Origin: Amoebidium appalachense
Taxonomy: Eukaryota; Protista; Ichthyosporea
Reading direction: 5' to 3'
Assembly (NCBI GenBank): GCA_963693365.1
Contig: CAVNZM010000007.1
Location: 5,329,962-5,393,961 of the forward strand
Length of the DNA: 64,000 nucleotides
In this document: positions 14,272-63,570 of the stretch, piece by piece
Layout: each line of letters begins with the position of its first letter
Numbering within the stretch: position 1 is the stretch's first letter
Notes under the pieces: generated by a model
What the model was told of the DNA's origin: nothing
Database searches by the model: none
Seen by the model: only the letters and a program-made list of their open reading frames with translations
Position numbers and translations under genes: made by a program

Positions 14272-14394
14272 CCCCTCTCTTCAACCCGAACCTGGCTTCC
14301 TTCTCGCCTCACCCTCCATACATGCACCGCAAGCACATACCCCCCCACCCTCCTCCCACACCCACCCACTCACACACACGCACACAAACACACG

Positions 14395-14493
<99 letters not shown>

Positions 14494-14883: not shown

Positions 14884-14950
<67 letters not shown>

Positions 14951-14952
14951 AG

Positions 14953-14986
<34 letters not shown>

Positions 14987-15108
14987 TCACGGACATCGAC
15001 CAGATTTGCGCGTCAATGGAAGGGGCCCTCGGTTCCGTGGGTGGATTCTGTGCAGGTTCAACCTTCGTTATTGATCACCAGGTGTGTGCGTGCGTGTGTG
15101 TGTGTGCA

Positions 15109-15174
<66 letters not shown>

Positions 15175-16021: not shown

Positions 16022-16052
<31 letters not shown>

Positions 16053-16595: not shown

Positions 16596-16627
<32 letters not shown>

Positions 16628-16996
16628 ACACACACGTACACACACGTACACAGTCGCAGTATCTCCGGCAGCTGCTGCAGGGCAAGCTGCGGTGGGTGGC
16701 AGTTGGGGGGGGATGACATTTCACCAATCATACACCTGCGTATCAGCGACAGCAGCATGCAGTACGACCAGCAGAACAGCGAACTGCAGAGGATTGTCGA
16801 CAGGGTGCGCAATTTTCCCTCTCTTTTTTGTCTGTTTGTATGATTGTATAATGTTTTTCGTGGGGTTTTTTTGTTTGTTTGTTTGTTTGTTTTCGTTTCA
16901 TTTGTTCGTTGGAGACTGAGGTGCGCGCTCGTGTGTGTGTGGTGGGTAGTGGGAAGGGGTGGGTGGGTGGGTGTGGGTATGGTTTTTTTTTTTTTT

Positions 16997-21431: not shown

Positions 21432-21615
21432 TTTGTCCCTCTTTTGTTTCTGTGAGTGGCGGAAGATATCTGTAGCTAAGGCACTCTGGTGTGTATGCCA
21501 AGAGAGGGATTCAAAGAAAATGGAAGCGTAACTTAGTAGAAGTGCGTCTAGATAACAAACATTTGTTGTCCAAAGCTCTAGCCCGCACATGTACAATCTG
21601 GCTGGCAGCCGCCCG

Positions 21616-21826
21616 TTTATATACCCCCGACAACGAAAGCCATCCACCAATCTAAAAGAGTGGCTCAAAGCACAGCTGATACTCTCTAAACCAATCAGCT
21701 GCTTATCTATTAGGCGCGTCTTTATTTGCATTGCCATATATGGCTAACTGGTGTAGCTCTGCAATATGACTGGTCCTTGTGTGGAGCCAATCTGACCAAT
21801 CATTTTTTACAATCGGTCTGATTGGT
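21616..21826 (-). promoter_or_regulatory. Probable promoter of the F-box/LRR gene: TATA box plus CCAAT cluster
   Basis: TATATAAA on the minus strand at 21616-21623; several CCAAT/ATTGG motifs between ~21647 and ~21826. Confidence 0.5.
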
Positions 21827-24006: not shown

Positions 24007-35074
<11,068 letters not shown>

Positions 35075-35972
35075 GCTAGCCGCACAAACTGGACAACGTT
35101 TCAATGTTGTATAAGCTCGGTTCGGTTTGACTATAACAGACTTCTTATACTCTTAATGATTGACTTGCTTTACTATGGATGTGGCGCGTTTACATCTATC
35201 TATCGATAATTGCTCGTGTGAGTAGCTTCTTTGCGTTTGTGCTCTTGGACTAGGTAGGTGAACGAGGTTGAAAATAGTGATGGTCTACTGAATTTGAAGC
35301 TGTGGCGTTTCCCTTGTGCGATGGTTAAATGCAGGCAGGCACGCCCTGAGCTACACTGTGGGGGGCAAGCACGAAAAAAAGAAAAAATTGAAAAATCCTA
35401 AACACGGCACGCTGATGAATTGCCTCGCCAAATAGCTTTTGTGTAATTGCTCGCCAAATTGCTTTCGTGTCATGTTCTGAATTGTTACAGATGCTCGTTT
35501 CGTGTGGTCATGATAAGGGTCTTGAGGCTGAGCCAAGCTTCAAGCGGCCGACGGCAGTTTGCGTGTATGTAAGCGCGGTAACATCAAAATGTGACATTTA
35601 GACGCTTTTAATGGTTCACAGCGCACCATAAGTTGTTTTAAACCCTTGATGGTATATAGAACTAATCAATTTTGTTCTATATAGCAGACATCTAGGCATG
35701 CTTGGTATGTGGCCGGGCAGCCTGAGCCTGAGGTACTGAATTGCACCCATTCATACAGTACAACGGTACTTGTATAGCCCTCTTTGGTTACACAATACAA
35801 ATACTTGCACTTATTTTTTCTTTTACGTCTTTGTATCACTCTCATGCACGTCCATGGGCACTCCGGAAAGATGTCGTCTCCTCAGGAGTACCGTGAGGAC
35901 ACACAGGCGACTGGGGTGAATTTTTCGCGGTCCGCGGGTCACGTGACACAATGATATGTGGCAGGCGCGCGC

Positions 35973-36117: not shown

Positions 36118-36320
36118 GCCCATCCGCATCATTCACTTGTTATGAGCTTGCCACTATGCTGGCGCAAATTATTGCAGTGCACCTCATGCCTTGCACTCCG
36201 CGGAGCAAGGGTGTCATTTACCTGACATCATGCATATGAAAGCTCTCTACGCCCTCGAGCAATTGCAACCAAGCTGATTCAAGAAACACACTTTTGATTA
36301 ACATTGGGGTTCGGACCAAC

Positions 36321-37448
36321 ATGGAGAACACCAGCACGTTCGTTCGCCGGAAAGGAGGCACAGTGGCGGGTGCCGGGTACGACATTGATCGTTTTGTGGG
36401 TGATGTGGACGAAGACATGCTCTGTACGATATGCTATGGGGTTCTTAGGGACCCAGTCATGACCCCCTGCGAGCACCATTTCTGCCAGGGTTGCCTGGTT
36501 GACTGGTTGGGTAAGGAGGCATACTGCCCTCTGGATAGAAAATATCTTGTGCCGGAAATTCTGGTTAAACCGGCTCGGTTTTTTCTCAAGGCGCATTCAA
36601 GCCTTGTTTTACACTGCGACTATCTAGCTCGTGGGTGTGACGACGTTTTCACCCTGGGAATGCTTCCGGCGCATGTTGCCTCTTGCCCGAAACGTCCGGT
36701 TACCTGCACGAATGATGGATGTGGTGCAAACGTGAACGCAGACGAACAACGAGAGCATGAACGAAGGGCGTGCGAATACAGGACTGAGACTTGCAGGCAC
36801 TGCAATTCATCTGTGATGGTGTCGCACCTGCCACGGCACAGAAGCGAATGTGCGGGGAACCCTCAGAGGTTAAACGGCGTAGGCGACAACAACGGGACGT
36901 TGGGTGGTGTGATGTCTTCTTTGGACAGCCCCAATTCAAGCTTTCGTAATGGTATGGGGAATAACCATGAACAAGGATACGAGTCGTCATTTAATGACGG
37001 GGGCTCTAGTTTTCATGGGGATGGTGAGGTGGACTTGAGCAAAGAGCTGGCCAGAATGGAATTGCTGTTGATGCAAATTGGGCGGGGACAGGCGGCCCTG
37101 GAGGCGAGAGTTGATAGGTTACACAGGGACACAAAGTTCTGGTCTACAGATGTTATGAATTTGCAAGTGGCGGTGAGCAAAGAAGTGGAGGATGTGAAGA
37201 GGGAGGTGGTGAGATGTGGGCTGGTCTATGCACTCGCAGGAGATGCTGCCCATGGGGAGAATGGGGTGTGTGAGAAGGGTGGCAGAGGGTTTGAGATGGG
37301 GTTCGGGGAGGGGCATGGGGAGGGAGAGAGGGAGTGGGTGGGGGGCAGGTGGGAGTTGTCGTTTGTGGTTGTGTTTACTATGGGTGCTGTGTTTGGGTTG
37401 GTGTTGTATCACCTGTTGGGGTGTGTGCCCGGCGTTTTGGGGGTGTAG
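36321..37448 (+). CDS. Intronless RING-HC + TRAF-type zinc-finger E3 ligase (RNF41/NRDP1- or RNF151-like N-terminus) with coiled coil and C-terminal TM segment, 375 aa
   Basis: GYDIDRFVGDVDEDMLCTICYGVLRDPVMTPCEHHFCQGCLVDWLGKEAYCPLDR (C3HC4). TRAF-type fingers CDYLARGC..HVASC, CTNDGC..HERRAC, CRHC..HRSEC. Hydrophobic tail LSFVVVFTMGAVFGLVLYHLLG. Confidence 0.9.
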   Translation: MENTSTFVRRKGGTVAGAGYDIDRFVGDVDEDMLCTICYGVLRDPVMTPCEHHFCQGCLVDWLGKEAYCPLDRKYLVPEILVKPARFFLKAHSSLVLHCDYLARGCDDVFTLGMLPAHVASCPKRPVTCTNDGCGANVNADEQREHERRACEYRTETCRHCNSSVMVSHLPRHRSECAGNPQRLNGVGDNNGTLGGVMSSLDSPNSSFRNGMGNNHEQGYESSFNDGGSSFHGDGEVDLSKELARMELLLMQIGRGQAALEARVDRLHRDTKFWSTDVMNLQVAVSKEVEDVKREVVRCGLVYALAGDAAHGENGVCEKGGRGFEMGFGEGHGEGEREWVGGRWELSFVVVFTMGAVFGLVLYHLLGCVPGVLGV

Positions 37449-39477: not shown

Positions 39478-40293
39478 GGGGGTTGGCAGACAACATCAGT
39501 ATACTAGCACCGTCCACAGCGAAGTGCAACTGCGCGCATTACAGCGCGTGTGAGTTGCTCCTAGACCCAGTCCCGGCCACTCTTTCAGATTCTCCGACTT
39601 GCTCAGTGACTCACATGAACAGGAGGATTATTTGCACTTTCATCGGGAAATTAAATAAACTCCAAAACCTTCGTTTTATGCAGATTATGAGAAGCCTCTG
39701 AAAATTTTATTAGACCCCGGATGTTCATATTTATGTTGTGCACACAGAAGTTACAAGGCCTCCGGGGTCGGACCTTTCCAAAACCAGCCGGGCTCTCCCC
39801 CCCCCCCCCCCCCCCTCCCCCCTCCCCCCCCCTCCCCCCCTCCCCCTCTCCCCCCATCCTCCAATCCTCCCCTCTTTTTTAGTTCTAGCTAGAGCTCGAG
39901 CCCGTCAGCCTCGGTAGGCTCTGTGATTTTTGGGATTTAGATACTCCCTTTGTCTATTAGAGTCACAGTGACATCATCGTGCCTCATTTAAGTCCATCCG
40001 TTAGGTATGGATTTATTATTAGTAGTAGTATTACACATAATGATTAATATTGTTGTTATTATGATTTGCTTTAAAGATTGCAAGGGTTGATACATACACA
40101 GACTGAGTGCAGCAAGAACGGCATGGGCTATTTGTTCAACAGCCTCCCGTTCACCTACGTCACGTTTATACTATTGCGTTGGTGCGGCATGCGAGAACCT
40201 GAAACGCCTAACAAGCAACTAAGGTGATAAATATACTCAAAACAAATTCACAGTAGCCTTGTTCGCTCCCTTATATATGTATGTGAATTGCAG

Positions 40294-40850
40294 CTATGCA
40301 AACAGTGCCTCTGTGACGTCATTGTAGTAGGGGCCAGTGTGGAAGGCCATGGGGATGGCCACGCGTGTTGCCGTGGGGTCGTCCATTGCGAGGTCGACCA
40401 TCTGCAGGTTGCGCACGGCTGGCGTGGAGAAGTACAGCCGCCGGGCGCTGTGGTCACGCACAACGGTCCACGCCGTGGTCCAGTCGTCGGCGCCCTTGGC
40501 CAGCGACACGCGCCCAATCATAGCCGTGGCCGCGCTCACGTGGTCCACGGCCGGGTCGCTGCACACGTACGACTGCAGTTGGGGCCCCAGGGCCCCGGCC
40601 CAGGCCCCCCCGCTGCGCACGGCATTCTCCTGCAGCATGGCCATCTGCACCAGCCGGTCCTCGGGCGTGGTGCTGCCGGCGCCGTGCATGGCCACCTCGA
40701 GCGTGGCGTTGGACACCACCGCCACGTCCTCATAGTCGGTGCCGTTGAGCCGTGCCCGCAGTTCGGCCAGCATGACCTCCCACGTGGGGTCGTTGGTCAT
40801 GGTCATGACGTTTCGGCTGTCGTACATGCACACCCGCGCCCCGGCCTCAT
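40294..40850 (-). pseudogene. 5'-truncated choloylglycine hydrolase / penicillin V acylase family (Ntn hydrolase) gene fragment, left copy
   Basis: MTNDP, PEDRLVQ and TTAWTVVRDHSARRLYFSTP..VDL resemble the C-terminal half of this family. The N-terminal half with the catalytic Cys is absent. Very GC-rich and intronless. Confidence 0.65.
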
Positions 40851-40854
40851 GGGC

Positions 40855-41224
40855 CCACGCCCGAGGACCGGCTGGTGCAGATGGCCATGCTGCAGGAGAG
40901 TGCCGTGCGCAGCGGGGGGGCCTAGGCCGGGGCCCTGGGGCCCCACCTGCCGTCGCACGTGTGCAGCGACCCGGCCGCGGCCACGGCCATGATTGGGCGT
41001 GTGTCGCTGGCCAAGGGCGCCGACGACTGGACCACGGCCTGGACCGTTGTGCGCGACCACAGCGACCGGCGGCTGTACTTCTCCACGCCGGTCGTGCGCA
41101 ACCTGCAGATGATCGACCTCACAAAGCTGCGCCTGGACGACCCCACGGCCCCACGCGTGGCCATCCCCATGGCCTTCCACACCGGCCCCTACTACGATGA
41201 CGTCACAGGAAATGTTGGCATAGC
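40855..41224 (+). pseudogene. Second, inverted, more truncated and frameshifted copy of the same hydrolase fragment
   Basis: 40855-41208 is the reverse complement of 40311-40670 apart from substitutions and several indels (translation MIGRVSLAKGADDWTTAWTVVRDHSDRRLYFSTP). Confidence 0.7.
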
Positions 41225-41926
41225 TTTGAAATCACGATGTATGCATATGAGGCCCTACAAGGCTAGCCTTGCAAGCACAGTGCAATTTTTTCCCCTTTGT
41301 TTCTTTGTTACTTGCTGAAACACTCACGAAGCTTGAAGGGGGTCTGACTCACTCTTTTGGGCGGATCAACAAGCCCATTCGGTGCGTATCATGCCAGTTA
41401 TATGTGACCTTGAACGATTCGGATCTGACCCGACAACTAAAGGAAACCTCCTGTAAATTTGTCAATTGTTACCAATGGCATCTTACTATTAGTATTAATC
41501 TGAATAAAAAAAAACCCCTAACTCTTCTTGTTGCGCTTATTTCATTGGTGTGCAAAGTCCTTTGTATAGTTCCAGTGATAATATTCACAGAGTCTCATGA
41601 TTTTAACTCAACAAATCAATCCAATTTGAACAACAGTTTCGAAAAAATCTCAAATATGTATCATGATATAAAGATAACTCTCGGAAAAGACGTTGTGTGG
41701 GTGCATGTGTACACAGTACAGCAGTATTCTCTGGTTTTGGTTGGGAGCCTCCGAATTAGCCTGCAAGGCAAAGGTCATTTCAGTGATTTGGTGGTTATAA
41801 AACTAAAAAGCAATTCGAAGGTGAAGGGGGAATTTTCAAAGTTGGCATCAAGCCTGCAATATAGTGGGTTTAGGTCGGTTACTCGTGGGCACTCTTTGGT
41901 CCAAAATGGACGGAAGAGTGACGGAA

Positions 41927-45042: not shown

Positions 45043-46574
45043 CTACTCGCGGTTCAGCCGATAGCTGTACGTGTAGGGGGGAGCCACGACGCTCTTTGAG
45101 TAGACGGTGTGTGTGCACGTGGACCGCTGCCGCACGGCCGCCCACATTTTCATGTTCTCTCTCGGCACCTGCACGGTCAGCACATACTGCCCGCTGGTCG
45201 TGTCGCCCACAGCCTCGCACACAGACTCTGCCCTCTGCGCCTTCTCGTCCGTCCACCCGAGGCACACAAACGTCTCCACAGAGGTGATGGGGTTGTCTTC
45301 GTTCTTGGTGTCGGGCTTGAGGTCCCACGTGATGGCCGCCGCAGTGGCCAAGGAGTTGCCCTCAAAGTAGGAGGTGGTGATGTTTAAAAGCTTCACGTTG
45401 TAGATTCGGTCGGTGTAGTTGTCCCACTTGCACCCAAAGTTGTCGGATTCGTCAGAGCTGCTTGCATCACTCGCCTCGTTCTTCTTCAGCTGGGTGAACG
45501 CGGTACGACCACCACACGAAGTCTAATATGCCATGCTCACTGACTCGACAACTCCCTCCTCGGGGGTAAACCCCAGGTCGCCGCGTGTGCCGTCCGTGTG
45601 CACACACCGTGTTTCCTTAATGCCGCTGTGCTTCTTAAGGTCCACACACGTCCAGGCGGTCAGACGGCCGGCCACCTCCTGTTTTTGCATGTCGTCCTGC
45701 GCGTCGATTCTAATCTCGGTGACGGAGGCACCGGGGATTTTATTGTTGCCTTCGCTAAGGAGCGGGAAGGGCTTGTTGGCGTCAAACGTTTTGGCGAAGT
45801 ATTGGAGCTTTGACGAGGGGGCCTTTGGTGGCTTGCAGAAAACGAGGGGATCTTTGAACTTTGCAAGGTCCTCGTTGCCGTGCTCTATGGGGATGCCCCC
45901 GGTGGCCATTGCGATTTTTTCGGTGCCGTTACGGAGCTTGCACGGAATGACCACCCCGTCAACGGGCACAATCTCACCGTTTATGGCGCCAGGGAGACGC
46001 CCGTGGGACAGGTACGCGGGAGAAGGACACGCGGCGTTCCTTGCGAAGTGACGTACATTCACACCATAGCCCACGGTGGTGTACAGGGTGAGTGCCTCGG
46101 GATATCCAACAATGGACGTGCCACCGGTCCTCTCGTCGGGGTCGTATGTGATCACGTGCATCATCATGACGTCACGCATCATGTTCGGGTTCTTTTGCAA
46201 AAGGTCCCAGGCGTAGTGGGGCACCTGGTCAAACGCATCGTTGGTTGGTGCGTACATGCGCAGAAGTTTCCAAACTCGACAAGGAACGTATCGTTTGTTG
46301 TCAGGTTCTTGTACACGCCGGTGGACTTGACTAGGCCGAAGAAGGTGGAAAACTCGGGGCGGGACTGAAGCTGTTCCCAGAGATCCTGGAATCCGTCCTT
46401 CTTTGACACAGAGCAGACCTTTGCATAGTTTGCACCGGCGTATTTATCGCAGTTGTCGTCGCAGGTGATGGCACTGGGGCAGTCGAGCGGGTAGCTGTAT
46501 CCGCGCTGTGTAGGCAGAGCGGCCTGGCCGGCTGTCACCAGGGTGGTGATGCGTGCAACGGCGGCGGCTGCCAT
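45043..46574 (-). pseudogene. Intronless fasciclin (FAS1)-domain, probably secreted, protein gene disrupted by one frameshift (~46258) and one in-frame TAG (45523-45525)
   Basis: LQSRPEFSTFFGLV..GNF|MYAPTNDAF (H1), MMMHVI and INGEIVPVDGVVIP (H2) form a FAS1 domain. The frame stays open after the TAG and joins ORF 45043-45396 in frame. TATATAAAA at 46637-46645 (-) and a CCAAT box at ~46684 lie upstream. Confidence 0.7.
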
Positions 46575-47501
46575 TCTTTCTTCAAAGTCTTTTGAGGGTT
46601 GCACTGACTTCTGATGTTTTGGGCGATCAGCGACGGTTTTATATAACTGGTTTCCCGGATCTGGTCAGATGACGGGCATTGCTGATTGGATGTATTGGAA
46701 TTCCGTTACAAGCCACTCTAGATCAGGACGCCCATAACAAGGTTGATGCGGTCGATGGTTTCCTGGTCACATATTCAATAAACATGCAAATATTTAGACA
46801 TATATATTTTATAGCACCATATTCTTCGACTCGTGCAACTGGCGGCAGTGGCGCGTACGAAGCTGGGAAGTTAGAAACAGAATGTTGGGTGTGGGGGGAC
46901 TATGGAATGCCGAGAATCTAAACAGGCTGAGTTCACGCGTTATGATCGGTGCTTTCTCCCCATTGGACGACAAAGATCTATGATGACGTCAAACACACGT
47001 GTCCGTAGTGTACACTCCGTGCATTTGTGCGCACGTGCAGCTCATAGCCGCCGGGATCCGAAATGCCGAATGCCCGAAATTTTGAAGGTTTTTGCAATTC
47101 ATATGTACCGTGAAACACTGGTACATATATGCCACAGTATGCATATGTGCTGATGGTGCTTTAGATACACGCATGTGGCCTGTATTATTATTAGTCAATC
47201 ACAGAACTTTTCACATTTTCTATCTATCGATTTGGCCAAGTTTGGCCATCATTTGGGCATTGAGTGATATGTGTAATTCGACTCGGCGACCAGTAACTGT
47301 GTTGTGCGTCGATATAATAAAAAAACACTGTTACAAATGATCATAAATGCTTCTAGAATAAATATGCACCGAATATGCTTTTGGTCCCTTTTCAGGTTTT
47401 TACCGTTTTGGTCATGTGACCACATGTACATGATCCGTCTGTCCAAGCTTGGTGGGTATGCGCAAGAGAAAAAGGTAGAGCTAGGTGCCCGCCCGTCCCC
47501 C

Positions 47502-49405: not shown

Positions 49406-49850
49406 TCAATGGTGTTGCTGGTGCCGATTCGTCGCAAACGCCAACAGCAAATCGGCGTCGTTCCGATCGCTTTCCGATTGCTCCCGATTACCCAACGATC
49501 CGCTCCCACCCGCACCAATGCCCATCCTCGCATCCCCATAATACACCTGTTGCTGATGTTGTTGTTGTGTTTGCATTTGTCCGTGTGCGTGTGCATATTG
49601 AGGGGCGGGTGTGTTTGGGACATAATAGCCGGCGGGGGGCGGAGGTCCAGAATACGATAACTGACCCGATCCGGGTGATGAAAGCATGCGGGGGGTGGCC
49701 ATAGAGAGGAGGGCGAGAACTTCGGCCGTTTCCGTGACCGTTGATTCGCCCCCCCTCTCCCTCTCTTCGGCCTGGGCGACGCTCAGTTGCGCAAACGGCG
49801 CAGATTGGTTGAGAGCGGGCCAACGGGGGGGAGTGTACCTCAATGACCCG

Positions 49851-49898
<48 letters not shown>

Positions 49899-51552
49899 GG
49901 GGGGGGGGGGGGGAGGGGAGAGGGGGAGGGGGAGTGAGTGTGAGTGTGAGTGTATGGGTGGGTGTGTGCGTGTGCGCGTGCTTGTGCGTGTGTGTGTGCA
50001 TGTGCGTGTGTGTGCACGTGTGTGTTTGCGTTCTGGGACCACATTGTCAAGGTAAGCGTGGAAATGAGCACAGTAAGTGTACATACACAACACAATACGA
50101 GACTCGTGAAGAGCGAATCAAGGTTAAAGGGTTACGACGGGGACGGGGGGTTAATAATGTGCTATAGAGGGCGAAGCACATTTTCATGATGGTCAAAACA
50201 ATGTAGAACGCAAACCCACACATGGGGGAAGTTGAGAGTGGGGAAAGAGGGAGTGTGGCAGCAATTGGGGAGGAAAAATCCACGGGGGGAATTGGGTGTG
50301 GGTGGGCGGAGGGGGGGGGGGGGGGGGTAGAACGAGAGGGGGGGGGGGGGGGGGGGGGAAGGGAAATACCTGGAGGGTCTGTACGGCCAGTAGGGACGGT
50401 GGTGTTTGGCGTGTGTGGCCGGGGAGGGGTGGAAGGGCAGAGCCGAGGAGTGTGCGCATACAGCAGGACACACACGAAGAGAGGACAGAGCCGTTGCTGC
50501 CCCCCTCGAGACAGAACACGACACGGCCGTGGCACACACTCATGAGGAGGTGAGTCATGTAGGCGTAACCTGCAGAATGTGTGTACATGTGTGCGTGGGT
50601 GTGCATGTACGTGTGTGTGTGGGGGGGGGTGGGGGGAGGGAAAGGAGGGAAAGGGGGGAGGGGGTGTACATGTGTGAGTGTGTTTCAAGGATGCCCGGGG
50701 GGGGGGGGGGGGGGGGGAGGGGGTGCAGAAGGGGCGGGGGGGTTAGCATGTGTTGAAGATTTCGAAGGGGGTGGGGAGTTAGGACAGAGGGGAGGGGAGG
50801 GGGAGGGAGCAGGGGGGGAGGGAGGTTGAGAGGTCCATTACAGGAGGTCAGGAAGGAAAAATAGCATCGGGCGGGTGGCACCGAAAGACGGGGGGGGGGG
50901 GGGGGGGGGGGGGGGAGGGGGGGAGGAGCAGGTATGTATGTAGGAAACGGGAAATGATACGTGGCGCATGTCTCTGATGAATACAGTCACCCACGTAAGA
51001 ATAACGATGAATACAGTCACCCACTTAAGAATAACGATGAATACAGTCACCCGCTTAAGAATAACGATGAATACAGTCACCCACTTAAGAATAACGATGA
51101 ATACAGTCACCCACTTAAGAATAACAAGAGCAACCACAACAACCACATGAACAACAACATTACTGAAATAACCATACCAATGACAACGACAACAGAAAAC
51201 AACAAGTGTTCACTCTTATCACTATAGAATAATGACAACAATAACCATAACAACAATCAAAAACACTTCTCATTTTTCGTAATTTTACCTTCAGGGGAAA
51301 CGGTAAAACCCTCATTGTCCCCCTCTGCAGCGTTGAATCCCGCAGACACGAGCACGACCGTGGGAGCAAAGGAGGCCACCACTGGGAGAACTACTGTGCG
51401 CATGGCTGCTAGGTACTCGGCATCACCAAACACCTGGTTGTCTGGGTGTGTACGTGTGTGTACGTGTGTGTGTGCGTACGTGTGTTTGTGGGGTTGGGGA
51501 GGGGAGGGGGGGGAGGGGGTTAGAATGTGTTATAGAGAACGAATGGGCGGGC

Positions 51553-51604
<52 letters not shown>

Positions 51605-52908
51605 TGGGGGGGGGGGGGGGGGGGGGTAAGTTGGTACTACAGAACCAACGGCGAAGATACATGGCCGAAAAGGATACGTGCATTGACTTGTGACCGGGAT
51701 CTTTTTTTCTTTTTCGTTTTAGTTTTCGTTTTCTTTCCTATATTTTTTTCCCGGGGTTGGGGGAGGGGCTGTTTCCCCCCCCCCCCCCCCCCCCCCCCTC
51801 ATTTACACACAGAAATTCACATCCACCCACCCACACATTGCACAAACACACAATCGACCAACACACAACCACAACACACACACACACGCACACGCACACG
51901 CACACGCACACGCACACGCACACACACACACACACATACACACACAAACACCCACACCCACCCACACACACAGAGACACCAAAACGGAGGTAGGAAGGGA
52001 AAAAACAAACAAAACAAAAAAAACACACACACACACAAAAAAAGAGAGAGAGAAAGGGGAAAACAACAGAAAGAAAAACACTTCAACATACCGGTATCCC
52101 AAGGAATGTTGATGGTGTAGCCTGTCCCCTCCCCTGCCCCGACCTCCAACAACCCCCCAGAGTGCGGGTATTGGCTGCCGCCGTCATACCGATGCATCGA
52201 GATATACAGAACTGATAATCGGATATCCGTAGTTAGATATACAACACTTGAACAACAAGAGACACGATGTATACAAAATGATAGTCGAATTTTCGTGGTA
52301 AGATGTATGTATAACACAGCGCCATTTGCATAATAAGAGAACGGGAATATACCGAATCAAACACCCATCTTTAAACATAGACATCATGCAACTAACTTGC
52401 AGACCCCAAATGAACAGAGCTGCCTTAAACCAACCACCGCATCTCCCATTTTAGACAAAATCGAGGCTGATCCGATCGAGGATCCCAAATTGCCCTGGCG
52501 CCGCCTAAGAAATTATTGAACTTATCAAGCAATTGAGGGAGTGACGTCACTGTGGAAAAAGTGTGCCCAGAATGACGTCACTCCCTCTATCGCTTGTCAA
52601 GTTCGATAATTTCTAAGGCGGCGCCAGGGAGATTTGGAATCCTCGATCGGATCAACCTGGATTCTTTCTAAAATGAGAGATGCGGTGGTTGGTTTAAGTT
52701 GTGATGTGATATCATGATACGTAGACACACTTAACGGCACGAAGGAGCATACCAGAATGTGTGTTTATAAACAGGGGCCCCATAGCATCAGTGTTTGCCA
52801 ACTTCACCTTTCACCATTTAATGTCTTGTTGCTAAGTCTTGTGCTAACAAACAAATTGTTCTTTCAACCTGGCACGTGAAGTCCCTCCCCCCCCCCCCCC
52901 CCCCTCCT

Positions 52909-52994
<86 letters not shown>

Positions 52995-54676
52995 CCCCCC
53001 CCCCCCCCCCCCCTCACACACGGCGCGCGCGCACACACGTATGCTTGCATACACACACACACACACACCGTGCGTGGGCGTGAGCGCACAAATGGGCACA
53101 CGCACACACACGCGCACGCACACACATGCACGCACACACACGCACACGCACACACACCCACACAAATGCACGCACACGCACACGCACACACAAACACACA
53201 CACACGCACACGCACGCACACACACAAACACACGCACACACACCTGATGTGTCTTCGTAGAATATCGACTGTGTGCCCTTGCCGTGGCATGCATCCTGCA
53301 TAGCAGTTGGCTTAGTAAATTGTTCATTCATACTCATTCTCCCAATCCCTTGTAGCAAAAAGCACAAACCCACCCTCGCTGTCTTGTCCATCCCTTACAC
53401 CCCCCCCCCCCCCCCCCCCCCCCCCCCTCTCTTCCCCCTCCCAACACAAAAATGAAAAATAGGAAAAAGTCCCACACAAAAGCAGAGGTGCGCCCGCACA
53501 CACATGCAAGCACACACAGTGACACACGGCACGCCTAGGCTAAAACCTACACGTTCAGCACCCACCCACACCTTTCTGCACCCCCTCCCCTATGCACCAG
53601 ACTCGGACATCCGGGGAGAAGGGTGTGCACGTGTAATTTTCAAAGTGAGTGGGCATGTGTGAGTGCCCGATTTTGCAAACATGCATGTGCATGCCCATGT
53701 TTTTAAATTAGGAGGCTGGGGAGAGGGGGAGGCTGGGGAGAGCGGGGAGGGGGGGGGGGGGGGGGGGGGTTTGGAAGGGAATGTGGTCCGCAGCATGAAC
53801 GCACAGATCCACAATAGTATAGCTTCATGCGGTTAAGGATATGGAGAAGAAAACACACACACAGTAATGTATCTGACATGGGAAGGAGAGGGCTTTTTTC
53901 TTTTCTTCCTTCTTCTCTTCCTTCCTGCTTCTTCTTTCTTTTCTGTTTTTCTTTTTTTTTTTCCTGCTTTGGGAACAGGGGGTGTGCGCAAGGGGAGGGG
54001 GGGAGGGGGGGAAGGGGAGGGGGGGGGGGGGGGAGAGAGAGAGAGAGGGGAGGGGGGAGGGAGGGAGGGAGGGAGAGGGGGGGGGGGGGGGGGGGGGATC
54101 ACAAACCCAGTCTATGATGGCTATCCTGTCCACCTTGTGTTGGTCCCGTAGCACCCGGGCAGCTATTGCAACATTGTTGAGGTAGCATCCACCCCTAATA
54201 AGGTTATTTTGTGCAGTGTCAGATTGGTGGGCCGTCATGCAATGTTCCCTAAATAGGCAATTCTGCTTGGTGTCGGATTGGTCGGCTGTCGTGCGCACAT
54301 GCGTTAACACGGAGAGACGGTGCATAACTGGAAGTAAATAGATAATAATGTGTGACACAAGATAGAAGTGTTACGGTGCATGTCGAGTTTCTTTGATGAT
54401 TGATTGGTCCCTTATCATGGCTGGCAGGCTCATGAAGTTGCAACACAGGCTGCCACAGAGCTGCTATTGATTGGCCTATTGTCACGGCTTGCATGTGAAT
54501 AAAAAGCCTCGATTGGTCTAATGTCATGGACTGTGTGCACATCAAGGAACCTGATTGGTCAAGCATCACGGCATGCACGTGCATGGAGGTGCTTAGTTGA
54601 TCTACAACAAGGGGTGGTGTGCAAAGCATACTCTCTTCCACAGGGGAGGAGGGGAGAAGGGGAGAGGTATGTGTGT

Positions 54677-54707
<31 letters not shown>

Positions 54708-54794
54708 GGGAAGAGGGAGATAGAGAGAGATATTTAGAGAGATACTTGAAGAGAGGGAGAGACAGATAGGGAGAGGGGGAGAGAGAGGGAGAGA

Positions 54795-54869
<75 letters not shown>

Positions 54870-55345
54870 GAGAGACAGACATACAGACAGAGAGAGTGAC
54901 CGTTCGGAAGACAGACATGGAAGAAGACATCGTTAGACCTACAGAAAGACAAACACACACACAGACATTCACAAAGACAGGCAGAGAGAGGCAGGCAGAG
55001 ACAGACAGAGGGACAAAACGTACCCCGGGCCATCCCTACTAGCCTGCATGCCCGGTGGCCTGACCAGAGCCAGTGCATTTCTCAGCTCCCCGCTGGCCAC
55101 GGCACATGCGGCATCCACGGCACAGCCACACGCCATAATGCTGGCGGTCATGCTAGAGGCACCCCCCCAGTACGTGTCTGCACTAAGTCCTTGGCCTCCA
55201 CACTGGTGTACACGTGTATGTGGAGGGGGTAAGTGGAAGGGGTAAGGATGCGTAGGTAAGAGCATGGGTGAGTGAGTGAGTGAGTGTGTGTGTACGTGTG
55301 TGTGTGTGTGTGGTGGTGGGTGGGTGGGGGAGGGAGGGAAGGGTT

Positions 55346-55379
<34 letters not shown>

Positions 55380-55479
55380 GGGGTGGGGTTGGGGTTGGGT
55401 GGGGTGGGGTGGGGAGGGAGGCGAGGGGGAGTATGTGGGTAGGTAGGGTGGTAGGGTGGTAGGGTGTCTGGGTGGTCTG

Positions 55480-55563
<84 letters not shown>

Positions 55564-55797
55564 GGTGTGTGTGTATGTGGTTGTGTGTGTGCGTAAGTGG
55601 GAAAGCAATTGTGGTATAATGTTACTTTAACTCTTCATTAGTTGTATGTATTATGTTGTGTGTGTTGTGTCTTTTGCGTGTGTCCCAATGTGTTTTATGT
55701 ATGTGTATGTGTGCACGCACACACGTCCATAAGTCCACATGCGTACGCGCGCTTGCCCCTGTGTGCGCTTATGGAAGTATGTATATACATATATACG

Positions 55798-55882
<85 letters not shown>

Positions 55883-56673
55883 TGCGTGTCCGTGTGGGTG
55901 CGCGCGCGCACGTGTGCCACCATTAAAAGGGAAACAGGCCAGGGTGAACAATCGGTAACCTGAATAGTTCGGTGGTGCCATGAGTTGTAACGAGCCATGA
56001 AATAAGAAGTTAGCATCAAGAGACAAGATCTAAGGGACACACTGAACACGTGAAGGTGTGTGCACAAGCACGTTCACCTGATTGCAGAGATGATACCACT
56101 GATGTGTTGTTGCAACGAAGCATGGCTGGGTAGGGAGGTGCCGGAGGGCCGGGGGGGGGGGGGGGGGGGGGGGGGTGTGTGTGTGGGGGGGGGGGGCGGG
56201 GCAGGGGGGGGAGAGGGAAGGGGGAGGGGGCCCCCCGGGGGTTTGAATGCGTCAAAAAGTACGAAGTACACAAGAACAAACGGATAACACGATGCAGAAT
56301 GGGGGGAGGGGGGAAGGGGGTGTTACCGGTAGGGGTACGAGAGGTGTATCGGATGGAAAAGGCCCCCAAGCCAAGGTCTCCAGTGAGTGCAGGTACTGGT
56401 CACTGTGCACCAATCGTATCTGTGTACCACACACCAAATTTGGTTAATTCACAAGCCACCACAAGTAACTATCCATTTCTTTCCGTCTCTTCTTTTCTTT
56501 TCTTTTTCCCCTCAGTTTCCTTCATCTAGTTCTGACCTTTATTCTTTCACTCACTTCATTCGCTCCTTTCTTTCGTTTTTCATTCATTAGTCCCTTCCAT
56601 ACTCTCTTTCTTTCTTTTACCCCCCCCCCCCCCCCCCCCCCCTTTCTCCCTTCCCCCGCAAAAAGGAGGAACT

Positions 56674-56723
<50 letters not shown>

Positions 56724-57311
56724 GAGGGGGGAGGCTAAAATGTGGAACACAAGAAGAAGTGCAAGTACACGATGAGAAACACCGTGCAGGACGCAAGCAA
56801 GTATGCAACATGAGCAACGCACACAGTATGCAAAAAAAGCAGAGCCCCATCCTCAGGGGAAGGCCCAATTCATCAACTGCATCTGAGTTTCGACCCCTTA
56901 GCCTCGTTTACCCCGGGGGAGGAGGGGGGGGGACGGGGGGAGGGGGGGGGGTTTTGAATGCGTCAAAAAGTACGAAGTACACAAGAACAAACGGATAACA
57001 CGATGCAGAATGCAAGCCATACATAAAGAGTATGCATAATAAGCAGAGCCCATCCTCAGGGGGGCCCACGTCATCCACAGTACCCGAGTTTGGGGGGGGG
57101 AGGGGGGGAGGGGACGGGGGGTTGGGGGGGATACATACCTGGTCTCTAGTAGCAGCACGGGGCCTCATGGTTCTACATCGGGCCAGCAGGCCCGAATCGT
57201 GCAAATGGGCCAACATGGTGTGCAGACGGGCCGGGTAGTCACTGTGCGCACTGTCGTTGCTGCACGTGCACCGGTGCTGAAGAACACTCTCGTCGTAGTA
57301 GATGCCCGTGG

Positions 57312-57380
<69 letters not shown>

Positions 57381-58532
57381 GGCGGGGGGGGGGGGGGGGG
57401 GGGGGGGGTTTGAATGCGGAACACGGTACAAAGTACGCATACACGACGAGAAGCATGGTGCAGGACACATGCAAAGGCAAACATTCAAGTATGCAACATC
57501 AGCCATGTGCACAGTATGCGTCATAAGCAGAGCCCATCCTCAGGGAGGACCCAAGTCATCAATTGCGTCTGAGTTTCGACCCCTTAGCCCGCGTATATAC
57601 GACACTCCAACTCAGACAGCAGCATCAACTGAGCTTGGGCGGGTCAACCCGTCTTGATCAAAGACGAGCAGGGTTGCTTATGCAAGCAAGGTGAGCAAAA
57701 CGGTGAAGATGTGTGTGCAAACTAATGCAGTGCAGCGAAAAATGTGTATGTGCTTACAGATGCACGACACAGAGCAACCATGCCCGGTTGCATGGAGTAA
57801 AGGGGGGGGGGGGGGGGGGGGGGAGGGTATTCTTTTCAGTATTACGGGTATGCGTCACTTTTCTTGTTGTGTTTCACATTTTCCGGGTGTTTTGTAAACA
57901 TTGCCGGTATGTTTCACTAGTACTGATGATGATGACCATAGTTGTAGCAACACTATCAAAGTTTTCCTGACAGTTGCGCGCTGAGAGAAGTAACGCCCCT
58001 GGGGCCGGCGCAGGGACGGGAAGGGGCGGGAAGGGGGGGGGGGGGGGGGGGAGGGTGGGTGGGAAGGGGGTATTTTACATCTGCAGAGACGGAGGGAGGA
58101 GTCTGCAATGTCGAGTGAGGGGAGTGCTGTGGGTGGACGATTGGTTTGGGGTCTGGGGAGTTGATGTCGTTGGGGGGAGTGGTGGGGTTGCTGCTGGCCG
58201 GGCTGGGAGTGGACCGTACGGACGCACGCTCGGCTGCGAAAAAGAAGAAAGAAAGGAGGAAAAAACAAGGGGGGGGGGGGGGGGGAGCGGGTTAGATGCA
58301 CATTCATAACAAACAACACAATGCAAAGGATGCATAATAAGAAAAGACCATCCGCAGAAAGGGGGGGCCAAGTCAAGAGAGGGATAGGGGGGAGGGAAGA
58401 GGAAGCTAATAAATATAGACTATAAAGCACACATTCACGAACTACAACATAGGAGTTGTTTTCTTTTCTGTTTTCTCCTTTCTCTTTTTTCTTTTCTTTA
58501 TTCTTCTTCTTCTTCTTTTTTTTTTTTTTTTT

Positions 58533-58575
<43 letters not shown>

Positions 58576-59293
58576 AATATCTGTTGATTGATGGGAGTAT
58601 GTTTGTGGGTCCTGACATCCGATTGGGAAACGGGGGGGGAGGGGGGGGGGGAGGGGTCTCTGTACAGATGGGTATGCAAACATCCTTTCCTCTTCCCCTC
58701 CTCCCCCCCCCCTTCTCCCTGTCCTTCCACCCTTCTCTCCCATGTCCTATTCTCCGCTCACTCTCCCCCCTCTAAACCATATGCCCCTTCATCTATCACT
58801 CTTTGTTCACTGACATAACTTCACGTGTGTGTCCAGGAAGAGATGTGGGGAGGGGAGGGAGGGGGGGGGCACACGACTTGTATGCATTATTGGTGGTGGT
58901 GGTGGTGGTGGTGGTGGTGAGTGTGTGTGCGTGTGTGTGCGTGCGTGTGCGCGCGTCCGTGCGTGTGTGTATGCGTGTGTGTGGAGGGGAGGGGGGGGGC
59001 TTTTTGCTCACCCGCTACTTGATTTGGATGGACTGCCTCTGGAGCGGAGGGGTGAAACGACATTGCCATATAGTGCGTGGGGGGTTGGGGTGCCTGACGT
59101 AGGGGGGACTCATTGGTAGCCGCATAAGAACCCCCCGGGGGGTAGAACGGCAATATGCGATGTTGCTGCTGTGTTGGGTATGGATCGGGCGGGCTTAGGT
59201 GTTTCTTGACCAACCCACGCATCTGCACATGTTGGGATGGGTGAGGTCACATAGACAATGGGAAATGGGGCATAAACAGAAGTAGCTACAATA

Positions 59294-59324: not shown

Positions 59325-59915
59325 CCCCCCTGCGCACACACCACCACCACCACCAACAACAACACCATCTCCCTTCCAATCCTACTCGTCGCAATAACCA
59401 TACAGACAGACGTGTACACGTACACACCCACAACCAACCATCCGTCCACCCCCACCCAAGCACAAATAAGCCCAAGCACACATGCCACACACACACACAA
59501 ACACTTACACACACGCATACAACCTGCATACAACCCCCCCTCCCCCCCCCCCCCCCCCGGGGCCTACACACACACCCACACACACACATTCACCCACCTG
59601 CCCACATCCACCCACCCACCCACTTACACAACGCAAACACAACCCCCCCCCCCACACACACACACACACGCAACCACATCGACACACCAACCCCCCCCCC
59701 CCCCCCCCCTACACACACACACACACACACACACACACGTACATGTGAAGGCTGTGAATGGGACCACGTAGCAGGGCGGTGAAGTGGTGGAGGCTGTTGT
59801 GCATTGCGGAAGCTGGAAGAAGCATCTGCAGGTCTATGGTGACTGGTCTTACGGTCCACAACATATTTGCGGATGCGGTGACGTAGGTTGTCCTGACTCG
59901 TTACAGCTTGAACAC
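49406..59915 (-). CDS. Class IIa histone deacetylase homologue (HDAC4/5/7/9-like), catalytically degenerate; start codon not resolved
   Basis: Exons in transcript order: 59915-59743, 59222-59012, 58233-58079, 57312-57139, 56419-56327, 56125-56078, 55202-55024, 54194-54107, 53295-53244, 52211-52092, 51441-51289, 50569-50370, 49850-49406. Phases are consistent. Motifs: [123 protein letters not shown]. Two assembly anomalies: no AG at the 57313 acceptor, and one extra base in the G7 run at 49825-49831. Confidence 0.9.
50976..51125. repeat. Intronic minisatellite, 5 x 30 bp (gatgaatacagtcacccacttaagaataac)
   Basis: Five near-identical head-to-tail units with no spacers, so not a CRISPR array. 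Confidence 0.95.
52425..52697. mobile_element. Palindromic MITE (~265 bp) bounded by TTAA, in an HDAC intron
   Basis: Terminal arms ttaaaccaaccaccgcatctc / gagatgcggtggttggtttaa. Internal arms tgatccgatcgagga / tcctcgatcggatca, ccctggcgccgcct / aggcggcgccaggg and gagggagtgacgtca / tgacgtcactccctc. Confidence 0.85.
54222..54571. repeat. Intronic array of six GATTGG-N6-RTCRYG motifs (CCAAT-containing)
   Basis: Motif starts at 54222, 54276, 54402, 54469, 54511 and 54553; the last three are 42 bp apart. Confidence 0.6.
56242..57091 (-). mobile_element. Three truncated element copies in HDAC introns: 56242-56300 (B), ~56736-56910 (diverged A-like), 56952-57091 (B)
   Basis: The B copies match the start of 26710-27338 almost exactly. 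All start after a G-run and stop at or next to a G-run. The HDAC exon 56327-56419 lies between them. Confidence 0.8.
57409..57801 (-). mobile_element. Full-length subfamily-A element embedded in a G-run
   Basis: Nearly identical to 61250-61644; G-runs directly on both sides. Confidence 0.9.
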
Positions 59916-60810: not shown

Positions 60811-61249
60811 GCAGAAAGACGGTGCAAGCACTGTACGCACTCCACACAACATAGTTTATGTCAATAATTTGCGCAAATAAACCTAGACGGTAATTCTGAC
60901 GGCCAAATGTCCATGCGACACAGACTGTTGGGTACATAGCCCTTAGGAACTTAAAATTGCAAGTGCTTGAAGTGGATGGCAAGCGTTGAAAAAGTGCCAG
61001 AAGCAATTGATATGGTTTTTAGTGATTGGCATATACTCGCGTGATTAAATCTCGTAAATACACAATAGATAAAACATGTCTTTGCTAGCAGATATATCAT
61101 GGTATTGCAAAATAGTAAGTTGCTGGTGACATGAACCACTCTCATTCGTGTCTTGCCCGATCATTTGCGATTGAACTCCCTTCCTTTCAAAACGAAGTTA
61201 TGTATTTTTTTTTTTTATTTTTTTTTTTTTTTTTTTGGGGGGGGGGGGG

Positions 61250-61968
61250 TTTTGAATGCGGAACACGGTACAAAGTACGCATACACGACGAGAAGCATGG
61301 TGCAGGACACATGCAAAGGCAAACATTCAAGTATGCAACATCAGCCATGTGCACAGTATGCGTCATAAGCAGAGCCCATCCTCAGGGAGGACCCAAGTCA
61401 TCAATTGCGTCTGAGTTTCGACCCCTTAGCCCGCGTATATACGACACTCCAACTCAGACAGCAGCATCAACTGAGCTTGGGCGGGTCAACCCGTCTTGAT
61501 CAAAGACGAGCAGGGTTGCTTATGCAAGCAAGGTGAGCAAAACGGTGAAGATGTGTGTGCAAACTAATGCAGTGCAGCGAAAAATGTGTATGTGCTTACA
61601 GATGCACGACACAGAGCAACCATGCCCGGTTGCATGGAAGTAAAGCGGTCTCCACACAGTGGTCTGTCCTGAAAGGACACCTCTGAAAGAAGACTGGGGG
61701 GGTTTTGAATGCGGAACACGGTACAAAGTACGCATACACGACGAGAAGCATGGTGCAGGACACATGCAAAGGCAAACATTCAAGTATGCAACATCAGCCA
61801 TGTGCACAGTATGCGTCATAAGCAGAGCCCATCCTCAGGGAGGACCCAAGTCATCAATTGCGTCTGAGTTTCGACCCCTTAGCCCGCGTATATACGACAC
61901 TCCAACTCAGACAGCAGCATCAACTGAGCTTGGGCGGGTCAACCCGTCTTGATCAAAGACGAGCAGGG
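61250..61968 (-). mobile_element. Tandem pair of subfamily-A elements: full-length 61250-61644 and truncated 61703-61968
   Basis: Both begin G-run|ttttgaatgcgg. The second stops at gacgagcaggg and merges into a G-run. Confidence 0.9.
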
Positions 61969-62745: not shown

Positions 62746-63570
62746 CTGGAGGACTGGTTCCAGTGGCAGGCAAGCTCTGTGCGGAGGGCGTCTGAAAGTT
62801 GGTCGGTTGCACCGATTTGTCATCTGAATAAAGATTCACGTCATGTTAGCACCAGGATTAAAACCAACACTCCTGTTCGACCGTAAAGCATCTTCAAGGT
62901 CTTTCTCAAGACAGCAACACCGCCCAGGAGCAAGCAAAAACAACGAGCGAATAAACGGCATATATTTGAGATCAGATCTCTTAGTCAGCAACCCACCAAC
63001 CGCATCAACAAATGTAAACACCAAGTTTCTACCCTCAACCAAACACAGAACATTAGAACATCAAGCAACGTTTGCTAGGAAACACATACCTGGACCATCA
63101 AGAGAGGGCAAGGAGCTGATGACGTGCTGTCCCTGTTCAGTGAAGTAGTTGACAAATTCGGTGATGTTTCCAATGGCAAGGTCGTCCACAGCAGTGGTGC
63201 TGCAGCAAATGGGGTTAGAATGCGGAAGATAACTAAAAACAACCGAGGTTCCTTAACTCGTCAAGCTAACACAACGAGAAAGTAGGTTCTCCATAACACA
63301 ATCTTTAAAATCTAGATCAGGCGATGATTACGTGCACCAGGTGTGGTACATATCTATGCTGCTCGTGCGAAAAGAGGCAGTCGTCGTTTACAAAGACCCC
63401 AGCCCCTTGAAACCTTACCTGCCAAAAATAAGAGAGGATCTCTGTGTCTCCTTTGTGCCCTCCGGGCCGTTGTAGCTCTTCCATCTTCTAAGGTCCTTGC
63501 GATGGGGTGTCTTAGGAGGCACAAGCGAAGGGGCAGAAGGGGCGTTCTGATCCACGTCCATGGACGCCAT
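62746..63570 (-). CDS. Three spliced coding exons of an unknown low-complexity protein; possibly the 5' exons of the class IIa HDAC
   Basis: Exons 63570-63419, 63199-63090 and 62823-62746 have good splice sites (gtaagg, gtatgt, gtgact; ctaac branch point) and matching phases. Translation: MASMDVDQNAPSAPSLVPPKTPHRKDLRRWKSYNGPEG...LPATGTSPP. It ends in phase 1, which fits HDAC exon 59915. Splicing instead to the acceptor at 62700 ends the protein at DFSEN-stop. Confidence 0.55.

What the first reader, a model, noticed from the sequence alone, without database searches (positions are those of the whole stretch)
49406..57312. Class IIa HDAC with an almost completely dismantled active site but intact structural zinc site (pseudo-deacetylase)
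Seen, using human HDAC4 numbering from recalled motifs: PPGHHA is PPGMQA (H802/H803 to M/Q, 55044-55049); GFC is GGC (F812G); DVHHGNG is DACHGKG (zinc ligand H842C, 53287-53295); GFD is GFN (zinc ligand D934N, 51332-51334); LEGGH/Y is LEGGS (50496-50498). The class IIa-specific CCHC site is kept with exact spacing ([11 protein letters not shown] plus CGG), as are the fold motifs and the C-terminal NES-like [11 protein letters not shown]. Known: vertebrate class IIa enzymes are weak because of one Tyr-to-His change but keep the catalytic zinc and His pair, and act largely as NCoR/HDAC3 scaffolds. Inference: an independent and far more complete conversion to a pure scaffold or reader. The changes concentrate at catalytic positions across five exons, arguing against random decay.
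Basis: partly seen in the sequence, partly recalled or inferred. Interest (0 to 1): 0.8.

Follow-up and report, generated by a model that had tools for sequence, protein, structure and literature searches.

The report
Enzyme-dead HDAC4 in an animal relative
This gene, likely from a single-celled relative of animals, encodes an HDAC4-type chromatin regulator that keeps its fold residues and structural zinc site but has lost nearly all catalytic residues, so it likely works as a binding adaptor rather than an enzyme, and a filasterean relative shows part of the same loss.

Summary
Confirmed and extended. The minus strand carries a 15-exon, 793-aa class IIa (HDAC4-like) gene, 63570 to 49406. H802M, H803Q, F812G, H842C, D934N and 976S are real; D840 and the C667/C669/H675/C751 zinc site are kept. 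Of 106 columns conserved in class IIa, 6 of 7 catalytic ones changed against 18 of 99 others (p=5e-4). An apparent frameshift is an assembly error (3 of 4 runs); two 3.2-kb contigs fit a spliced mRNA, but joints were not shown. The best relative is a Pigoraptor chileana (Filasterea) protein that shares F812G and an N-terminal helix and has also lost H842, D934 and Tyr976. The pair groups at 99/95, though AU tests do not reject alternatives. Catalytic decay also appears in 5 of 35 reference class IIa rows. The conversion is therefore probably not unique to this gene. A vertebrate-type SMRT/NCoR link is doubtful: four SMRT-contact residues changed. Most likely a dead adaptor with a MEF2-binding-like helix; the partner is unknown. 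The scan earlier noted a dead class I HDAC on other DNA, not this gene. New variant of a known kind.

The parts
63419..63570 (-). Exon 1 (coding part), ATG at 63570
   Evidence: First Met after an in-frame stop; GT donor; the model is open over 793 aa
63090..63199 (-). Exon 2; holds an N-terminal helix (63097-63174) shared with the Pigoraptor protein
   Evidence: Score 46, 1 of 1000 shuffles as high; reciprocal best among 323 proteins and in the six-frame window; helix 101-127 in the P0126 model
62746..62823 (-). Exon 3 (low-complexity linker)
   Evidence: AG/GT ends, frame fits; no homology support
59743..59915 (-). Exon 4; basic amphipathic segment 59848-59901 resembling the class IIa MEF2-binding helix or the NLS
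   Evidence: Ungapped profile: MEF2 motif 0 of 500 shuffles, NLS 3 of 500; a local HMM did not pick it for the MEF2 motif
59012..59222 (-). Exon 5 (low complexity)
   Evidence: AG/GT ends chosen for frame; no homology support
58079..58233 (-). Exon 6 (Pro/Ser-rich linker)
   Evidence: AG/GT ends
57139..57312 (-). Exon 7: start of the deacetylase domain, with C667, C669, H675 of the structural zinc site; acceptor reads CG in the window
   Evidence: Aligns to HDAC4 2VQJ, E 1e-9
56327..56419 (-). Exon 8 (class IIa insert, shortened)
55024..55202 (-). Exon 9: C751 and D759 kept; H802M and H803Q at 55049-55044
   Evidence: Top PDB hits are HDAC4, E 3e-11; Pfam PF00850
54107..54194 (-). Exon 10: F812G at 54190-54188, shared with Pigoraptor
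53244..53295 (-). Exon 11: D840 kept, H842C, N845K
52092..52211 (-). Exon 12: F870Q, F871Y, G873H on the pocket rim
51289..51441 (-). Exon 13: D934N at 51334-51332; loop 939-944 shortened by three residues (L943 lost)
50370..50569 (-). Exon 14: position 976 is Ser at 50498-50496
49406..49850 (-). Exon 15: end of the domain, NES-like helix (about 49700-49732), Gln-rich tail, stop 49408-49406; one surplus base at 49825 in the assembly
   Evidence: X11, X9, X1 lack the base

Best explanation
The gene encodes a class IIa (HDAC4-like) protein that has lost the catalytic His pair, two of three catalytic zinc ligands and the 976 residue while keeping the fold residues and structural zinc ligands, so it is predicted to have no deacylase activity and likely works as an adaptor that tethers a partner to transcription factors. 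Shown: the substitutions, their clustering, the open frame, class IIa placement, and a filasterean relative with overlapping losses. Inferred: (1) no stable catalytic zinc and no general acid-base, so no hydrolysis; (2) the structural zinc holds the class IIa loops in the closed, partner-binding form, since the four closed-form ligands are kept and the open-form ligand H678 is not; (3) the rim of the old active site, widened by F812G and the short 939-944 loop, binds a protein partner other than the vertebrate SMRT GSI peptide; (4) the basic helix in exon 4 docks on a MEF2-type factor or serves as NLS, and the C-terminal helix exports the protein, as in animal class IIa HDACs.
For: Substitutions and kept ligands. 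Enrichment 6 of 7 against 18 of 99, p=5e-4; 82 of 106 conserved columns kept. The six main changes need at least 12 base changes in 18 nt, whereas neutral drift of 0.2 changes per site leaves the 405-codon frame open in 2 of 1000 simulations and 0.5 in 0 of 1000. The frameshift is an assembly error, and X11/X9 contigs run 2323 and 2316 nt upstream of 49850 against 1938 nt of modelled coding exons, while the X1 contig stops 23 nt into the intron. Five runs hold 0.20-0.26 of the words, near the exon share of 0.15-0.22. P0126 is the best match (340 bits, next 319) with F812G, H842Y, D934G, 976A; 10 of its 15 losses overlap the 24 in this protein (p=9e-5). The P0126 model matches closed, SMRT-bound HDAC4 5ZOP best (TM 0.95 over the target, rmsd 2.0). 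All six residues called class IIa-specific SMRT contacts in PMC4498904 are kept or conservatively changed (C667, C669, C751, D759, T760, F871Y). Human class IIa repression does not depend on the Tyr/His residue (PMC7288346, passage).
Against: No activity, metal or partner data exist. No splice joint was seen directly, and the RNA label of X11 is the tool's guess (X9 is labelled DNA?). The CG acceptor before exon 7 is unexplained. No close orthologue was found, so dN/dS could not be computed and a very recent loss of function is not excluded. The 14-3-3 motifs of animal class IIa are not recognisable here (S246-type 24, S350-type 271, S467-type 291, S632-type 8 of 500 shuffles as high), though Pigoraptor keeps two. 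The MEF2-like helix is absent from P0126 (475 of 500) and fits the NLS nearly as well. The spliced protein itself was not folded.
Confidence: 0.66

Rival explanations
1. A reader: the metal-free, widened pocket binds an acyl-lysine mark or a small metabolite without cutting it, and this binding gates the protein's location or partners.
For: F812G is shared with Pigoraptor and found in none of the 35 reference class IIa rows (34 Phe, 1 Cys) or 23 outgroup domains, which looks like a selected change in pocket shape. D759, an aromatic at 871 and R681 are kept.
Against: The residues that replace H842, D934 and 976 differ between the two proteins (Cys/Tyr, Asn/Gly, Ser/Ala), which fits free drift better than a new shared ligand site. 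Groups that would hold an acyl carbonyl are gone.
Confidence: 0.12
2. A vertebrate-style scaffold that binds GSI-type motifs of an NCoR/SMRT-like corepressor and so recruits HDAC3.
For: 16 of the 21 surface residues needed for SMRT binding in human HDAC4 (PMC4498904, section 18) are identical, and the closed-form zinc ligands required for GSI binding (PMC4505066, passages) are kept.
Against: H803, F812, H842 and N845 changed. The GSI isoleucine packs between F812 and F871 (PMC6294515, passages), and H803Y, H842L and N845S impair SMRT binding (PMC4498904, passage). Whether the organism has GSI motifs could not be tested: no genome is held.
Confidence: 0.1
3. An enzyme with altered chemistry: D840, C842 and N934 still bind a metal, or C842 acts as a nucleophile, on an unknown substrate.
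For: D840 is kept in both proteins, Cys is a good zinc ligand, and Asn at 934 occurs in P0104/P0191, which otherwise have an intact site.
Against: Both catalytic histidines and the 976 residue are gone; H802 is invariant in 35 of 35 class IIa and 23 of 23 outgroup rows. Pigoraptor has Tyr and Gly at the two ligand positions, so no alternative site is shared.
Confidence: 0.06
4. A recent pseudogene or a redundant paralogue under relaxed selection.
For: Long branch (0.95 changes per site against 0.57 for Pigoraptor), CG acceptor at exon 7, eroded 14-3-3 motifs; an intact paralogue could not be sought.
Against: No stop in 793 codons; 13 of 14 introns read GT-AG (with the exon 5 donor moved one base); the only frameshift is an assembly error; contigs fit a full-length mRNA; losses are focused and multi-step.
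Confidence: 0.06

Closest known systems
Vertebrate class IIa HDACs (HDAC4/5/7/9; PDB 5ZOP, 2VQW)
   Same: C-terminal deacetylase domain, class IIa structural zinc site, long disordered N-terminus, NES-like C-terminal helix, weak or no catalysis
   Different: Vertebrates change only Tyr to His at 976 and keep H802, H803, D840, H842, D934 and F812; here only D840 remains. No recognisable 14-3-3 motifs; an extra N-terminal helix is shared with Pigoraptor.
Pigoraptor chileana class IIa protein (EukProt EP01137_P006391, P0126)
   Same: Best match (42% identity); F812G; H842, D934 and 976 lost; structural zinc ligands kept; shared N-terminal helix
   Different: Keeps H802/H803 and the S246- and S350-type motifs; lacks the MEF2-like helix; different replacement residues; I found no paper describing it
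HDAC10 C-terminal pseudo-deacetylase domain (PMC5454378, section read)
   Same: HDAC fold without zinc ligands or catalytic residues
   Different: It is fused to an active domain, lacks several helices and loops L1-L5, and diverges fast; this protein is a stand-alone class IIa domain that keeps its loops, apart from a three-residue shortening, and a structural zinc site
Partly degenerate animal class IIa proteins (Sycon P0151; Ciona P0154, Styela P0180; Trichuris P0121; unnamed P0104, P0094, P0017)
   Same: Loss of one to four catalytic or zinc-binding residues
   Different: None loses H802; they sit apart in the tree, so these look like separate losses; single database models, not checked for errors

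Membership tests
Zn-dependent HDAC superfamily (PF00850) | Deacetylase domain by profile | tested here: met
   5 of 6 exons scanned hit PF00850, three above the curated cut-off
Class IIa HDAC | Structural zinc ligands C667, C669, H675, C751 | tested here: met
   All four kept
Class IIa HDAC | Groups with class IIa rather than class IIb in a tree | tested here: inconclusive
   Inside class IIa at 97/82 and 95/82, but the AU test does not reject joining it to the outgroup (p=0.29)
Class IIa HDAC | Single C-terminal domain after a long N-terminal region, with a C-terminal NES-like helix | tested here: met
   293-aa N-terminal part; the helix aligns with the class IIa C-terminal helix; export itself not tested
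Class IIa HDAC | MEF2-binding motif | tested here: inconclusive
   Ungapped profile 0 of 500 shuffles at residues 119-136, NLS profile 3 of 500 on the same stretch; HMM not significant, 39 of 500 and elsewhere
Class IIa HDAC | 14-3-3 phospho-serine motifs (S246, S467, S632 types) | tested here: not met
   24, 291 and 8 of 500 shuffles as high; the S246 type is clear in P0126 (0 of 500)
Active HDAC | His-His dyad H802/H803 | tested here: not met
   Met/Gln
Active HDAC | Catalytic zinc triad D840, H842, D934 | tested here: not met
   Asp, Cys, Asn
Active HDAC | Tyr (or vertebrate His) at 976 | tested here: not met
   Ser
SMRT/NCoR-binding class IIa scaffold | Surface residues needed for GSI-motif binding | tested here: inconclusive
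   16 of 21 identical; H803, F812, H842, N845 changed, F871 to Tyr (list from PMC4498904)
SMRT/NCoR-binding class IIa scaffold | Binding to a corepressor and HDAC3 | not testable with these tools
   No genome is held; needs pull-downs
Pseudogene | Stops, frameshifts, broken splice sites, no transcript | tested here: not met
   No stops; the frameshift is absent from 3 of 4 runs; mRNA-like contigs; one CG acceptor unresolved

The most novel reading that the evidence does not exclude
Single-celled relatives of animals carry an old, zinc-less branch of HDAC4 that gave up catalysis before animals arose and reshaped its pocket (F812G) and gained a private N-terminal helix for a new binding job; the non-enzymatic role of class IIa HDACs is then ancestral, and catalysis has been shed repeatedly across Holozoa.
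Probability: 0.35. Interest if true: 0.75.

Novelty: new variant of a known kind. Interest (0 to 1): 0.55.

Why it matters
Whether class IIa HDACs are enzymes at all is an open question (PMC4505066 discussion passage; PMC12383505 passages), and the papers I read place the catalytic weakening in vertebrates. A full-length, apparently expressed class IIa protein with almost no catalytic residue left is a natural null. It shows which surfaces selection keeps once chemistry is gone: the structural zinc loops, D759/T760 and the C-terminal helix. It also makes the scaffold-versus-enzyme question testable in a simple system. The Pigoraptor relative and the partial losses in sponge, tunicate and nematode proteins suggest the drift towards a non-enzyme is older and more common than the vertebrate Tyr-to-His change.

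Tried and rejected
No whole genome is held, so paralogues, MEF2 and NCoR could not be sought. No listed run is on record as RNA; this is no evidence either way. Splice joints were not obtained from reads. X2 shows a 2-base loss at 49749 in one contig of depth 5.4 and ends inside the 49825 run; treated as uninformative. Word-index search with exon 9: 0 hits of 37 candidates; with exon 13: 20 hits of 80 candidates, none close; with the P0126 stretch: the best 120 listed of 2529 were HDAC6 and animal class IIa, no further unicellular holozoan by name. Metagenome scan: 2 loci of 597 stretches, both with an intact His pair or an unrelated HDAC, and the scan stopped at 23 of 64 parts. Aligning nine exons on one scaffold failed and was dropped. 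ESM Atlas gave only generic HDAC clusters for P0126 and no hit for exon 2. Exon 4 had no PDB hit. Exons 4 and 5 show no similarity to the P0126 N-terminus (600 and 641 of 1000 shuffles). A shared motif at the two C-termini was rejected (943 and 752 of 1000). Rare-residue sharing does not single out P0126 (4 of 74; best row 7 of 76). AU tests do not reject alternative trees (p=0.29, 0.26). An apparent H842C in P0098 from pairwise BLAST vanished in the multiple alignment. Complex prediction (N-terminal helix on the domain) was not available, so that idea is untested. Paper searches found nothing on class IIa HDACs of unicellular holozoans: 0 papers; 1, unrelated by listing; 67 matches, none of the 20 listed mentions HDAC4. 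One chromatin-evolution paper sought by DOI is not held, and most subscription papers are not covered.
Full report
Gene model. Reading both ends of every exon from the sequence gives 15 exons on the minus strand from an ATG at 63570 to a stop at 49408-49406, encoding 793 aa without an internal stop. The deacetylase domain starts at 57312. Five of six exons scanned hit Pfam PF00850, and exon 9 matches HDAC4 structures best. Introns are rich in CA repeats and C or G runs. The host is likely a holozoan: an exon of the neighbouring serine palmitoyltransferase 1 gene scores 59.5 bits to the top 473-aa chain (the human enzyme, by recall of those entries) against 29.5-35.9 for the other SPT1/LCB1 chains, and the best HDAC relative is filasterean. 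'Single-celled' is inferred from the tree position outside animal rows.

Two blemishes. The window has seven identical bases at 49825-49831, which shifts the last exon. Contigs of runs X11, X9 and X1 each lack one base there; X2 ends inside the run (3 of 4). So the shift is an assembly error, and the NES-like helix is in frame. The acceptor before 57312 reads CG, directly after a CA microsatellite. A dropped base is the simple reading, since the first strand of the domain just downstream is conserved, but this was not checked. The next AG in frame (57277) would remove that strand and keep the zinc ligands.

Expression. No run is on record as RNA. The X11 and X9 contigs are 3227 and 3256 nt, lie on the minus strand and extend 2323 and 2316 nt upstream of 49850. 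The modelled upstream coding exons total 1938 nt, leaving about 380 nt of leader; an AG lies 392 nt before the ATG. The X1 contig stops 23 nt into the intron at the microsatellite. Five runs hold 0.20-0.26 of the words, close to the exon share of 0.15-0.22. This fits a full spliced mRNA, but it is an inference: no joint was displayed.

The active site. In the 61-row alignment (numbering from Aotus HDAC4, P0071) the protein has H802M, H803Q, F812G, D840 kept, H842C, N845K, F871Y, D934N, 976S, and a three-residue shortening of the 939-944 loop. The catalytic zinc of HDAC4 is held by D840, H842 and D934 (PMC6294515, passages). C667, C669, H675 and C751 are kept. H678, which replaces C669 in the open form (PMC4505066, passage), is Tyr here and Val in Pigoraptor, though it is His in only 25 of 35 reference rows. 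Of 106 columns at least 90% conserved in 35 reference class IIa rows, 82 are kept; 6 of 7 catalytic columns changed against 18 of 99 others (p=5e-4). The six main changes need at least 12 base changes in 18 nt; uniform neutral drift of 0.2 per site leaves the frame open in 2 of 1000 simulations. Random decay is therefore unlikely, though a very recent loss of function would leave no such trace. The 61 rows came from 115 non-redundant domains; I left out 51 HDAC6-type domains for run time and three gappy class IIa models (P0008, P0037, P0040).

Relatives. A HMMER search of 1.84 billion representatives with exon 9 gave 201 hits, 150 listed. Scored on the whole domain, the best of 170 proteins then held was P0126 (340 bits, next 319), a Pigoraptor chileana protein from EukProt. 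It keeps the His pair but has F812G, H842Y, D934G and 976A. Ten of its 15 losses at conserved columns overlap the 24 here (p=9e-5; same residue in 2). A 25-residue helix in exon 2 is its reciprocal best match (BLASTP alone found no alignment). The pair groups at 99/95 and 94/91 with nine active-site columns removed, outside the animal rows. Against this, AU tests reject neither placing the query with the outgroup (p=0.29) nor Pigoraptor with animals (p=0.26), rare residues do not single out P0126, and both are long branches. A shared ancestral loss is likely but not shown; the differing replacements at 842, 934 and 976 fit either one loss followed by drift or separate losses. The AlphaFold model of P0126 has a confident domain and a disordered N-terminus with the shared helix at pLDDT 62-71, and matches SMRT-bound HDAC4 5ZOP best.

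Recurrence. Five of the 35 reference class IIa rows have lost catalytic residues: Sycon P0151 (H803Q, F812C, D840S, H842T), Ciona P0154 and Styela P0180 (D934S, 976F), Trichuris P0121 (H803M), unnamed P0191 (D934N). P0017 and P0094 have D840A. None of 23 outgroup domains has such losses. An unnamed protein, P0118, branches below all of these with an intact site, which suggests the class IIa ancestor was active. These are database models that I did not verify.

Mechanism. Without the His dyad, two zinc ligands and the 976 residue, hydrolysis by the HDAC mechanism is not expected (established knowledge of the family). What is kept is the binding side: the closed-form zinc ligands needed for peptide binding (PMC4505066, passages) and 16 of the 21 surface residues mapped for SMRT binding (PMC4498904, section 18). 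The changed ones are H803, F812, H842, N845 and F871Y; the SMRT isoleucine sits between F812 and F871 (PMC6294515, passages), so vertebrate-type binding is probably weakened and another partner is more likely. Residues 119-136 (59901-59848) fit the MEF2-binding profile built from 30 animal N-termini (0 of 500 shuffles) and the NLS profile (3 of 500), with six profiles tried; a gapped HMM did not confirm the MEF2 reading, and P0126 lacks it. In Drosophila some HDAC4 effects need the MEF2 site and not the catalytic site, while others need catalysis (PMC10763444, passages). My best reading is a non-catalytic adaptor (0.66), ahead of reader (0.12), canonical NCoR scaffold (0.10), altered enzyme (0.06) and pseudogene (0.06).

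Comparison and novelty. Dead HDAC domains are known (HDAC10 pseudo-deacetylase, PMC5454378, section 6), and vertebrate class IIa enzymes are called pseudoenzymes (PMC12383505, passages); PMC7288346 (passages) states the Tyr-to-His change is found only in vertebrates. Ten paper searches showed no description of a zinc-less class IIa HDAC in unicellular holozoans, within a library that lacks most subscription papers; I read no supplements, and HDAC tables in comparative-genomics supplements could list such proteins. PMC10868454 was searched for five residue names with no hits. The scan's earlier notes held one dead class I HDAC from another genome and nothing on this gene or P0126. Verdict: real, a new variant of a known kind, interest 0.55.

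Noticed in passing
window 6980-16700 (+): Multi-exon serine palmitoyltransferase 1 gene; one exon scores 59.5 bits to the top SPT1 chain against 29.5-35.9 for the other SPT1/LCB1 chains
   Followed up: partly
window 1300-2716 (+) and 20079-21743 (-): Two intron-poor F-box plus leucine-rich-repeat genes; the first is split over two frames near 2000-2200, possibly another assembly slip
   Followed up: partly
window 36240-37445 (+): Single-exon RING plus TRAF-type zinc-finger ORF, 402 aa
   Followed up: partly
window about 31000-35150 (-): Exons that look like a G-protein alpha subunit with a long Cys-containing N-terminus; weak Pfam hit PF00503, E 0.09
   Followed up: partly
window 57395-57694, 61237-61536, 61696-61968, 27647-27946, 12760-12913 and four shorter copies: A dispersed repeat of about 300 bp with copies 74-100% identical, mostly in introns and often flanked by C runs; probably a young non-autonomous mobile element
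   Followed up: partly
window 52424-52700: About 260-bp imperfect palindrome (85% arm identity) in intron 11, MITE-like
   Followed up: no
window 50946-51155: 30-bp tandem repeat, about five copies, in intron 13
   Followed up: no
window 40231-41315: A short coding-like segment present twice, in opposite orientations (about 40330-40730 and 40930-41300); no Pfam hit
   Followed up: no
window 45046-46664 (-): ORFs in three successive frames with a weak fasciclin hit (E 0.004); may be one surface-protein gene with introns or assembly slips
   Followed up: no
P0151 (Sycon ciliatum, EukProt), P0154/P0180 (tunicates), P0007 (unnamed): Animal-side class IIa proteins with their own catalytic losses; P0007 has H842Y, D934N, 976V while its cluster mate P0172 keeps H842
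   Followed up: partly
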